A stretch of DNA of 64,000 nt from contig OZ024757.1 in NCBI GenBank assembly GCA_964016885.1, positions 15,748,001 to 15,812,000 of the forward strand. Reading direction: 5' to 3'. The notes under the pieces were generated by a model. The model was given only the letters and a program-made list of their open reading frames with translations. It did no database searches and had not been told where the DNA came from. Origin of the DNA: Eledone cirrhosa (taxonomy: Eukaryota). A program made the position numbers and the translations under genes. This document shows positions 12,232 through 48,217 of the stretch, piece after piece (position 1 is the first letter of the stretch; each line of letters starts with the position of its first letter).

Positions 12232-13018
12232 TTATGTATATGTAAATGTGTCTGTATATATATATATGAATGTATGGGTTTATACATATATTGGTATATG
12301 AGTGTGTATATATGTACATTGATGCATGTGTTGTGTTTGTGCATAAGTACGCTTTTATGGGCATAGAAATGTGTACATCTGTGTGCGTATGTGTGTGTTT
12401 TTGTGTGAGTGTGTGTTTGTGTGTGTGTGTTTCTGTGTGTGTTTCTCTGTGTGTGTGTGCGTTTCTGTCTGTGTATGTGTGTGTGTTTCTGTGTGTGTGT
12501 GTGTGTGTTTCTGTGTGTGTGTGTGTGTGTTTCTGTGCGTGTGTGTGTGTGTTTCTGTGTGTGTTTCTGTGTGTGTGTGTGTGTGTGTGTGTTTCTGTGT
12601 GCATGTATGTGTGTGTGTTTCTGTCTGCATGTGTGTGTGTGTGTGTGTGATTCTGTGTGTGTGTGTATGTGTATAGAATGTGTTCGTGACCATGCATGCT
12701 GTTTGTACCTGTTTACCGAGATGGAAGTGTGCAGCGTGTTGACTGATTGTCGCTTGTTGGTGTATATATACACACAACACTGTGCATATTGCAGCATGTG
12801 TGTACGTATTTTATAGACATATTAGACATATGTGTGTATAAATATATACATAAACAAACATACACACGTAGATACACACACACATACACACATACACATA
12901 CACACACGCACACACATATATATATATATATAGGTACGTTATTCCGGGTTGAATCGGAGGTAACCACAGTAAGTAAGGTACTCAATACATAGCAGAGTAT
13001 AAAAGTTTTAATATAGAT

Positions 13019-13071
13019 GAGATTCTACAGGACTAGAACTGTTTCATTCTTTAGAAATCATCAGGAATCTC
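13019..13071 (-). ncRNA. type I hammerhead ribozyme motif
   Basis: Minus strand reads GAGAUUC CUGAUGA UUUC-UAAA-GAAU GAAA CAG-UUCUAGUC-CUG UA GAAUCUC: 7-bp stem I, intact core, stem III and a GUA cleavage triplet. Confidence 0.85.
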
Positions 13072-13173
13072 TATATATATATATGAATGTATGAATATAT
13101 ATATATATATATATATATATTCATGCACACAAACACACTCACATATATATATGTCTACATATATACGTACATT

Positions 13174-13400
13174 GTGAAGGTGTGTGGCTGAGTGGTAAGA
13201 GAATTGGATTCACAATTGTGAGGTTGTGAGTTCGATTCCTGGACCGGGTGATGCGTTATGTCCTTGAGCAAGACACTTTATTTTACATTGCTCCCTCTAC
13301 CTGGAGTTGCGACCAATAGATATTAATAGCAATTGGAAAGACCAATGGAAACATTGTTTCCTCGGTCCGATTTGATGACTGTCGATACATACAGAAACTC
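13174..13400 (+). mobile_element. tRNA-derived SINE with CORE-like domain (family B)
   Basis: TGGCTGAGTGG A box, GAGTTCGATTC B box and TGTCCTTGAGCAAGACACTT; a close paralog lies at 48849-49070. Confidence 0.85.
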
Positions 13401-15599: not shown

Positions 15600-15664
15600 T
15601 ATTTTATCTGACGAAGGCATGCCATATTTTAATTTGGTATCCCTGAAATATGTATAATGAAATA
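15600..15664 (+). ncRNA. type I (minimal, palindromic stem III) hammerhead ribozyme motif
   Basis: UAUUUUAU CUGACGA AGGCAUGCCA-loop-UGGUAUCCCU GAAA UAUGUA UA AUGAAAUA: 8-bp stem I (one G-U), about 9-bp stem II, AUA triplet, with AAUAAA overlapping the end of stem I. Confidence 0.75.
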
Positions 15665-15908
15665 AATATGGTTTTATAAATATAGTTTCCATTTATTTAA
15701 CATCGTATATATATATATATATATATATATTTATCACGATAAATTAATGGAGCCATAGACTCTCGTATTTACACTTTAGTTTATATTTTTAATTATCGTG
15801 TCTCTACCCTGCCTTTCATAGGTTATAGATTCCATACACTGGTGGTTTTTCCCTGTTTTATTGATGGTGCACTATCTCTCTCTGGTGTGTTACCTTTTCA
15901 ACATATTG

Positions 15909-23610: not shown

Positions 23611-23656
23611 ATTGTGAGTGCGCATTTCGAACTGAACTGGTTCTCATCAGGACGAT
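23611..23656 (-). ncRNA. degenerate hammerhead ribozyme motif
   Basis: Minus strand: AUCGUC CUGAUGA GAAC-CAGUUCA-GUUC GAAA UGCGCA CU CACAAU; core, stem II and palindrome are intact, but the cleavage site and stem I are imperfect. Confidence 0.55.
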
Positions 23657-42371: not shown

Positions 42372-42406
<35 letters not shown>

Positions 42407-42448
42407 GTTTATATGCTTATATATATGTAAGCATATATGTGTGTGTGA

Positions 42449-42480
<32 letters not shown>

Positions 42481-42768
42481 ATATATATATCCACACACAC
42501 ATGTATGCTTACATATATATAAGCATATAAACACATACATACATACATATATATACACACATACATACATACACTCACACACACACTCATACATGCGCAT
42601 ACTCACTCAATTTATGCTTATATATATATATATGTATGTATATATATATATAAGCATAAATTTGTGTGTGTACCATATATATATACGTGTGTGTGTGTAT
42701 AGTGTGTATGTAAGTATATATATATATACATCCCAGCACATACATATATGTATGTGCTGGTATGTAAG

Positions 42769-42800
<32 letters not shown>

Positions 42801-42835
42801 CCAGCACATACATATATGTATGTGCTGGTATGTAA

Positions 42836-42868
<33 letters not shown>

Positions 42869-42901
42869 AGCACATACATATATGTATGTGCTGGTATGTA
42901 A

Positions 42902-42936
<35 letters not shown>

Positions 42937-42945
42937 CATACCAGC

Positions 42946-42983
<38 letters not shown>

Positions 42984-43292
42984 GCTGGTATGTATGTCTA
43001 TATATGGCTATATATGTTGATGATCATCATCATTCTGATGATATATCTCTGGATGATTTAGTTTGGAACAGGATGCAAAGTTTTGGCAGCTGACCAAAAC
43101 TCCACAACACCACCATGTCATATTTTCCTCTAACAACGCCCACACCAAATTCAATAGCATGCTTCATAATTCACTTCTTGTACTTGACCAGGAAATGTGC
43201 TGAAGATGGACAAGTCAGAGACGCCATTTTTGTTATATTCTACTAACACTTGTGGAGGACCCATGCCATGAATAATGACAGTGATAGTGTTA

Positions 43293-47882: not shown

Positions 47883-47940
47883 ATACCTGATGATATCACC
47901 GGATTCATACGGAACCCGGTCATTGAAATGATCATAGTAT
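47883..47940 (+). ncRNA. type I minimal hammerhead ribozyme motif in an island of about 220 bp embedded in (TA)n (47768-47990)
   Basis: AUAC CUGAUGA UAUCACCGGAUUC-AUACG-GAACCCGGUCAUU GAAA UGAUCA UA GUAU, followed immediately by AAUAAA. Confidence 0.8.
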
Positions 47941-48023: not shown

Positions 48024-48217
48024 ATTAAGACAGGGGGGAAGAAAAAATGGCTTCACTTGTGCTTTCAACAAATTTATTTTCTTCACAAAATCCAAAAAGA
48101 ATTTTCCTTAAAAAAAATTATTTTATAAATTAAGAAAAATTCTTTTTGGATTTTGTAAAGAAAATAAATTTGTTGAAAGCACAAGTGAAGCCATTTTTTC
48201 TTCCCCCCTGTCTTAAT
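48024..48217. repeat. fold-back inverted repeat, 88-bp arms, 18-nt spacer
   Basis: 48024-48111 is the reverse complement of 48130-48217 with 2 mismatches. Confidence 0.95.

What the first reader, a model, noticed from the sequence alone, without database searches (positions are those of the whole stretch)
13019..13071. Complete monomeric type I hammerhead with a U-U pair at the base of stem II
A perfect 7-bp stem I, A-CAG/CUG-U stem III, intact CUGAUGA and GAAA, and a GUA triplet (cleavage predicted between 13026 and 13025). Position 10.1-11.1 is U-U rather than the usual G-C. The same U-U occurs in the unrelated 47883/60019 motif, hinting at a shared core variant rather than decay.
Basis: partly seen in the sequence, partly recalled or inferred. 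Interest (0 to 1): 0.75.

Follow-up and report, generated by a model that had tools for sequence, protein, structure and literature searches.

The report
U·U hammerhead of a Hydra-clade Penelope
This is one of about nine thousand near-identical copies of a likely self-cutting RNA motif at the end of a young Penelope-type jumping gene; its odd U·U is the normal form in that family and the commonest form in this genome, and it was already reported and shown to cut in other organisms.

Summary
The motif is real (minus strand, 13071-13019; predicted cut 13026/13025). It lies in a 137-bp piece, 135/137 identical to the pseudo-LTR of an intact Hydra-clade Penelope-like retrotransposon. U10.1·U11.1 is not decay: 97 of 100 family copies carry it, none G-C. 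Genome-wide, U…U cores number 58,928 against 13,607 G…C, in about seven families with different stems II. It is not new: U·U is reported in Perreault 2011, shown to cleave in an axolotl family of about 60,000 copies (Cervera 2020), and present unremarked in 14 of 25 Hydra families in Craig 2021 File S2. Two corrections: the parent's stem I has 6 pairs (the seventh, G13071, is a junction addition), and 'monomeric' is unshown. Side result: 32 of 61 copies begin at the 5' strand of stem I, 30 nt behind a TATA box, and about 1% at the cut site. The copied RNA likely starts at the ribozyme and is uncut. The scan noted a like pattern before in another family of this genome. Cleavage was not tested.

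The parts
13019..13071 (-). type I hammerhead: stem I, CUGAUGA, stem II closed by U·U, GAAA, 4-bp stem III, GUA triplet
   Evidence: family counts
13057..13057 (-). U10.1
13046..13046 (-). U11.1
13025..13026 (-). predicted scissile bond (A17/G1.1)
   Evidence: standard hammerhead numbering; not assayed
12934..13070 (-). pseudo-LTR fragment of a Hydra-clade Penelope-like element, from the predicted transcription start to the distal 3' end
   Evidence: 135 of 137 identical to parent L164
13071..13071 (-). non-parental G that makes the seventh pair of stem I (cap copy or 1-nt fold-back, inferred)
   Evidence: G in 7 of 17 short arms, 0 of 32 long arms; 1,655 of 8,999
13004..13006 (-). proximal fixed 3' end of the family (predicted reverse-transcription start site A), read through in this copy
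12933..12935 (-). distal fixed 3' end (predicted start site B); the 70 nt between A and B is the one-sided 'tail'
12943..12958 (-). small predicted hairpin just before site B
   Evidence: prediction only
12916..12932 (.). (TA)n target tract, 3' side of the element
13072..13084 (.). (TA)n target tract, 5' side of the element
47883..47940 (+). hammerhead of a second repeat family: U·U (47894/47924), long stem II, palindromic stem III; parent not identified
60019..60076 (-). second copy of the 47883 family, U·U

Best explanation
The motif is the hammerhead in the pseudo-LTR of a young Hydra-clade Penelope-like retrotransposon, U·U at 10.1-11.1 is the family's normal closing of stem II, and the ribozyme is likely a slow but working cutter. 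Shown: family, parent, U·U consensus, two fixed 3' ends in (TA)n, and 5' ends piled at the 5' strand of stem I. Inferred: the pLTR promoter (CCAAT, TATA, initiator-like site) starts the RNA at the first base of stem I. The element's protein nicks (TA)n and starts reverse transcription at one of two internal sites 24 and about 92 nt behind the cut site. The copy runs through the still uncut ribozyme and off the RNA's 5' end. That gives 137-bp solo pieces like this one and, when both strands are primed, head-to-head pairs. U·U is predicted to weaken stem II and slow cutting, which fits an RNA that is copied uncut; cutting may need a dimer or the element's protein.
For: Parent: 14 of 20 fetched loci hold an open frame of 700 aa or more, and 9 of 20 show the U·U ribozyme on both sides of the ORF; unit 5,394 bp in L164. 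Hydra motifs RWR, DKT, CxCX5C, CxxC, CxH and a C-terminal YIG; no GxKF/Y (against PMC8557442). U·U: 97 of 100, 99 of 100 and 99 of 100 listed copies; 38 of 42 with intact core in an unbiased set. Genome: 58,928 U…U (control 223), 13,607 G…C (control 50), of 121,251 cores (control 5,031). Pair 10.2-11.2 varies (U-A, A-U, C-G) among U·U families. PLE footprint: 22 of 30 best copies have an adjacent inverted partial copy. 5' ends: 32 of 61 at -7 to +3 from C3, 27 of them with an inverted arm; TATA 30 nt before stem I. Only 168 of 7,178 copies lack G16.2, and 16 of 30 of those inspected break near the cut. Activity of U·U elsewhere. Internal priming at two sites on uncut RNA in another PLE.
Against: No cleavage, transcription start or RNA was observed for this family. 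The hammerhead fold is 2.9-3.4 kcal/mol above the predicted minimum in the two short constructs, with stem II and III pair probabilities under 0.1 (tertiary contacts not modelled). Loop II varies freely (UAAA, UAAU, UCCC, UUUU), so no conserved loop II-stem I contact is seen. Pfam finds no RT family in the parent ORF and GIY-YIG only at E 0.067 (2e-4 on a C-terminal piece); the clade call rests on motifs and on a by-eye likeness to File S4 proteins, no tree. Other closings also amplified (G-C, A-U, U-A, G·U, A·A, C·C), so U·U is not required. 16 of 61 copies run further upstream and 10 stop inside the ribozyme. Cut-and-rejoined or still-paired RNA would leave the same DNA footprint as uncut RNA.
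Confidence: 0.82

Rival explanations
1. On why U·U: it is only the best-tolerated mismatch under weak selection in AT-rich elements, with no role of its own.
For: U-U supports more cleavage than any other mismatch there (PMC3088659 citing Ruffner 1990). Homologous 466-bp array units differ as G-C versus U·U (66% over 249 nt, E 2e-8) and 310/311-bp units as U·U versus A-U (308 of 311 identical); each state formed arrays. A·A and C·C families exist. The axolotl U·U ribozyme cut more than its sister (22% versus 6%).
Against: U·U outnumbers G-C 4.3 to 1 and holds while the next pair changes, here and in 14 of 25 Hydra families from three phyla. Copy counts are not independent events.
Confidence: 0.55
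2. The ribozyme of this family no longer cuts; the fold is kept as part of the promoter or the protein-binding 5' end.
For: About 1% of copies begin at the cut site; weak predicted fold; in the anole element catalytic mutants did not affect insertion in vitro.
Against: All core bases and GUH are kept in the parent and in sister subfamilies whose stem I changes on both sides; U·U forms cleave elsewhere.
Confidence: 0.1
3. The pile of 5' ends marks a fold-back or fall-off of the cDNA at stem I on a longer RNA, not the RNA's start.
For: Some junctions are clear fold-backs through stem I (L057, L188, L195, L206); Arkhipova 2013 explains palindromic junctions by self-priming; the extra G equals a 1-nt fold-back extension.
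Against: Ends fall at the exit of stem I and stop at -7, at an initiator-like site 30 nt behind a TATA box; one insertion with a whole ORF begins at the same place (L167).
Confidence: 0.3
4. It works only as a dimer, like most metazoan type I hammerheads.
For: Loop III holds a CUAG palindrome; the co-fold of two cores gives -21.4 against -5.7 kcal/mol for one; axolotl U·U dimers cut far better.
Against: Stem III has 4 pairs; a sister copy lacks the palindrome (L120); the two pLTR ribozymes are about 5 kb apart.
Confidence: 0.3
5. The U·U is decay of this one copy, or the motif is chance.
For: Low Rfam score and folding z.
Against: 8,999 copies, control 0; 97 of 100 U·U; intact parents carry it.
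Confidence: 0.01

Closest known systems
Hydra-clade Penelope-like elements (Craig et al. 2021, PMC8557442; passages, File S1/S2 tables and File S4 excerpts read)
   Same: C-terminal GIY-YIG, RWx, DKT, CxCX5C, (TA)n targets, type I hammerhead in the pLTR; 14 of 25 listed families have U opposite U at 10.1-11.1 (hand count)
   Different: New family: its ribozyme differs from Hydra-1_Obim; 4-bp stem III with 8-nt loop; unit about 5.4 kb with a long 3' UTR against under 3 kb; thousands of copies. The authors put the two U in the 'core' columns and call the motifs canonical.
Axolotl HHR_Amex2 retrozyme hammerhead (Cervera and de la Pena 2020, PMC7229834; passages and section 15 read)
   Same: Type I, U·U at the base of helix II, about 60,000 copies; cleaves 22% in 1 h as monomer, more as dimer
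   Different: Tandem non-coding retrozyme with a 2-bp stem III; here the ribozyme is in an autonomous element
Natural U10.1-U11.1 core variant (Perreault et al. 2011, PMC3088659; section 8, passages and Figure S6 text read)
   Same: Same mismatch, among core variants listed as active; the machine-read Figure S6 appears to show it in the PaP3 phage ribozyme
   Different: Described there as rare; here it is the commonest state
Minimal PLE hammerheads (Cervera and de la Pena 2014, PMC4209133; parts 1-2 of 4 read)
   Same: Type I motif in pLTRs, mostly solo or inverted copies
   Different: Those keep G10.1-C11.1 with an extra base after A9 and have little or no stem III; that form also occurs in this genome but not in this family
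Poseidon element of the green anole (Frangieh et al. 2024, PMC11167929; parts 1-2 of 4 read)
   Same: Two internal RT start sites behind the ribozyme, one-sided tail, AT-rich target, uncut RNA as template
   Different: Other clade; ribozyme overlaps the ORF start, here it lies 175 nt before the ATG

Membership tests
Type I hammerhead ribozyme | core C3-A9, G12-A14, A15.1-U16.1, H17 | tested here: met
Type I hammerhead ribozyme | three helices, open at stem I, with compensatory change | tested here: met
   stem I changes on both sides in sister subfamilies; stems II and III are not in the predicted minimum fold
Type I hammerhead ribozyme | Watson-Crick pair at 10.1-11.1 (consensus; natural exceptions known) | tested here: not met
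   U·U in 97 of 100; accepted active variant in PMC3088659 and PMC7229834
Type I hammerhead ribozyme | loop II-stem I tertiary contact | tested here: inconclusive
   loop II sequence not conserved
Type I hammerhead ribozyme | self-cleavage 3' of N17 | not testable with these tools
   needs an in vitro assay
EN+ Penelope-like elements | single ORF with RT and C-terminal GIY-YIG | tested here: met
   713-aa ORF with YRDD and YIG; GIY-YIG E 2e-4 on a piece, 0.067 on the whole, no Pfam RT hit; 22% over 313 aa to a PF00078-positive PLE protein, E 1e-4
EN+ Penelope-like elements | pseudo-LTRs with hammerhead, inverted 5' copies, one-sided tail | tested here: met
Hydra clade | RWK-like motif, DKT, no GxKF/Y | tested here: met
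   RWR at 38, DKT at 116, no GxK[FY]
Hydra clade | CxCX5C linker; CxxC and CxH in the endonuclease | tested here: met
   positions 566, 666, 694
Hydra clade | (TA)n insertion | tested here: met
   30 of 30 copies end in a TA tract
Hydra clade | generally under 3 kb | tested here: not met
   5,394 bp between ribozymes in L164; descriptive, not diagnostic
Hydra clade | placement in the RT tree | not tested
   reference proteins were seen only as paper text
Non-LTR retrozymes | non-coding tandem units of 200-500 bp, one ribozyme each | tested here: not met
   the window copy is solo and has a coding parent; other U·U families here do form such arrays

The most novel reading that the evidence does not exclude
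U10.1·U11.1 is a selected brake. Penelope-like elements put the hammerhead at the very start of their capped RNA and repeatedly replace G-C by U·U so that the RNA stays uncut long enough to be translated and reverse-transcribed, with cutting switched on later by dimer formation or by the element's protein. Sister families here that differ only as G-C, A-U or U·U would be a ready test set.
Probability: 0.2. Interest if true: 0.6.

Novelty: new member of a known kind. Interest (0 to 1): 0.3.

Why it matters
The variant is known, so the single copy matters little. Two things are useful. Searches that demand a Watson-Crick pair at 10.1-11.1 would miss about half of the CUGAUGA…GAAAC cores in this genome and over half of the listed Hydra families. 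And the role of hammerheads in Penelope-like elements is still open (PMC8557442, PMC11167929): an intact, recently active family with a mapped pile of 5' ends and natural G-C, A-U and U·U sisters makes 'is the RNA cut before it is copied?' directly testable.

Tried and rejected
Whole-window Rfam scan: the 150 rows shown of 400 were all microsatellite-driven miRNA hits below gathering score. Expression: no RNA holder listed. Two contig runs of unrecorded kind were laid; depth steps up at stem I and down at site B, but contig depth is not copy number or expression, so it is not used. Reading the first U as the extra base between A9 and 10.1 (Cervera 2014 type): rejected, the remaining register does not pair (sequence). 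A SINE or retrozyme identity for the window copy: rejected once the coding parent was found. Parent of the 47883 family: tblastn with two PLE proteins and flank reading found no firm link. Cap versus fold-back origin of G13071: not separated. Ungapped breakpoint mapping mixed in sister subfamilies and was replaced. Lunse 2017 (PMC5785218) is not held and was not seen; it may discuss U·U in PLE ribozymes. Ruffner 1990 was seen only as cited. PMC6155905, PMC6765202, PMC2377424, PMC11300833 (passages) and preprint 10.64898/2026.07.22.740005 (part 1 of 5) added nothing on U·U; PMC5785220 (outline) was unrelated. Paper searches surfaced no main-text statement that U·U is the majority state in Hydra-clade or cephalopod elements; the library lacks most subscription journals.

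Full report
1. Observation. The motifs at 47883 (+) and 60019 (-) also have U opposite U and share only the core word with this element. Alone the motif is weak by standard scores: Rfam 13.7 bits against a gathering score of 48.5, folding z -1.17. Its reality rests on copy number and covariation.

2. What it is. The block between two (TA)n tracts is a young repeat: 861 candidates, the 40 scored 99-100% identical. All 30 fetched copies end at one site before a TA tract, all carry U·U, and 22 of 30 have an inverted partial copy at the 5' side (these were picked for likeness to the query). Longer copies continue upstream into a shared region with CCAAT and TATA boxes, and one continues downstream into an ORF. 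Of 20 loci fetched from the best hits to that ORF (723 candidates), 14 hold an open frame of 700 aa or more and 9 show the U·U ribozyme on both sides in the same orientation. The window piece is 135 of 137 identical to that pseudo-LTR. The 713-aa protein has RWR, DKT, YRDD, CxCX5C, YIG, CxxC and CxH and lacks GxKF/Y, the marks given for the Hydra clade in PMC8557442, and resembles the Hydra proteins of File S4 by eye. Pfam support is weak and no tree was built. The genome is 3.0 Gb; earlier scan notes call it octopus-type (unchecked).

3. The U·U. Within the family, with N at both positions, there are 8,999 matches (control 0); of the first 100 listed, 97 are U·U, one A-U, two U·G, none G-C. 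In 61 consecutive copies anchored downstream of the cut, 38 of the 42 with an intact core are U·U. Genome-wide, CUGAUGA…GAAAC cores number 121,251 (control 5,031), U…U 58,928 (223) and G…C 13,607 (50). These are copy counts, inflated by arrays, limited to U7 and C15.2, and a few U…U hits are chance or decayed forms; among the first 100 cores I count 35 U…U and 10 G…C by hand. About seven families with different stems carry U·U while the next pair varies, including a Neptune-type element and tandem arrays. Other closings amplified too: homologous 466-bp units differ as G-C versus U·U, and 99% identical 310/311-bp units as U·U versus A-U. So U·U is inherited and common, but not required.

4. Known already. 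Perreault 2011 reports a natural U10.1-U11.1 start of stem II and cites Ruffner 1990 that U-U is the most active mismatch there (Figure S6 text). Cervera and de la Pena 2020 describe HHR_Amex2, about 60,000 axolotl copies with a U·U at the base of helix II, 22% cleaved in 1 h as monomer against 6% for its sister, and much more as dimer. In Craig 2021 File S2, 14 of 25 Hydra families (Hydra, sea cucumber, copepod; two share an identical ribozyme) have U opposite U; seven have G-C, two G·U, one U·C and one is ambiguous (hand count). Cervera 2014, by contrast, calls G10.1-C11.1 highly conserved in PLE ribozymes. Searches surfaced no main-text remark on U·U as a Hydra-clade trait; Lunse 2017 could not be read.

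5. Corrections. The parent has C where the window copy has G13071, so its stem I has 6 pairs. G is found there in 1,655 of 8,999 copies, in 7 of 17 arms that end at this place and in 0 of 32 that run on: a junction addition, from the cap or a 1-nt fold-back. 'Monomeric' is unshown: the hammerhead fold lies 2.9-3.4 kcal/mol above the predicted minimum, and two cores co-fold through loop III at -21.4 against -5.7 kcal/mol for one (no tertiary terms).

6. How it likely works. Copies have two fixed 3' ends about 70 nt apart, the one-sided tail that Frangieh 2024 traced to two internal RT start sites. Of 61 copies from 60 loci, 35 appear to begin between -9 and +3 from C3; three of these are sister subfamilies that run on and are dropped, leaving 32 between -7 and +3, 27 with an inverted arm. 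Sixteen run further upstream and 10 stop inside the ribozyme. The TATA box starts 30 nt before the first base of stem I. Few copies begin at the cut: 168 of 7,178 lack G16.2, and of 30 inspected 14 keep the ribozyme and 16 break near the cut, several by fold-back through stem I, about 1%. I infer that the RNA starts at stem I, is primed internally, and is copied uncut to its 5' end, as for the anole element, where the ribozyme is protein-assisted and uncut RNA is the main template. Start site, cutting and priming were not observed. A fold-back hotspot, or cut RNA that stays paired, remain possible. The scan noted a like pile of ends in another family of this genome (e1-9525717), seen after my own note; it is an AI note and not support.

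7. Verdict. Real, a new family member of known kinds on both counts (Hydra-clade element; U·U hammerhead). Interest 0.3: the variant is precedented and shown active elsewhere. What remains of value is its scale, the blind spot it shows in strict searches, and a ready set of natural sisters for testing whether U·U is a brake (probability 0.2) or mere tolerance.

Noticed in passing
window 13170-13300 (+): tRNA-like SINE head with A- and B-box-like words right beside the element (label from recall, no call).
   Followed up: no
window 15600-15665 (+): Another complete type I hammerhead with A-U at 10.1-11.1, long stem II and palindromic stem III; family also in L191.
   Followed up: partly
window 23625-23650 (-): Hammerhead-like core with G-C closing but poor stem I and III junctions; probably decayed.
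   Followed up: partly
window 12978-12988 (-): An 11-nt word behind the ribozyme recurs in sister subfamilies, in the parent's 3' UTR, in the repeat at window 48350 and, nearly, at the end of Hydra-2_Amil; possible protein-binding or priming signal.
   Followed up: no
L110, L114, L115, L118, L123: A second autonomous family with Neptune-type motifs (GxKF, DKG, CX4CxxC; by eye) also has a U·U hammerhead about 400 nt after its ORF, so U·U is not confined to the Hydra clade.
   Followed up: partly
L139 versus L128; L125 versus L127: Homologous tandem retrozyme-like units differ as G-C versus U·U (466 bp) and U·U versus A-U (310/311 bp).
   Followed up: partly
G000:C1:83679797-83698997: Tandem array of the query family's pLTR with about 1.08-kb period; strand imbalance suggests a larger array elsewhere.
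   Followed up: no
G000:C1, first 100 cores: Families with A·A and C·C at 10.1-11.1 also recur.
   Followed up: no
window 48033-48209 and 42403-43003: Long perfect fold-back sequences between or within microsatellites; likely inverted ends of other elements.
   Followed up: no
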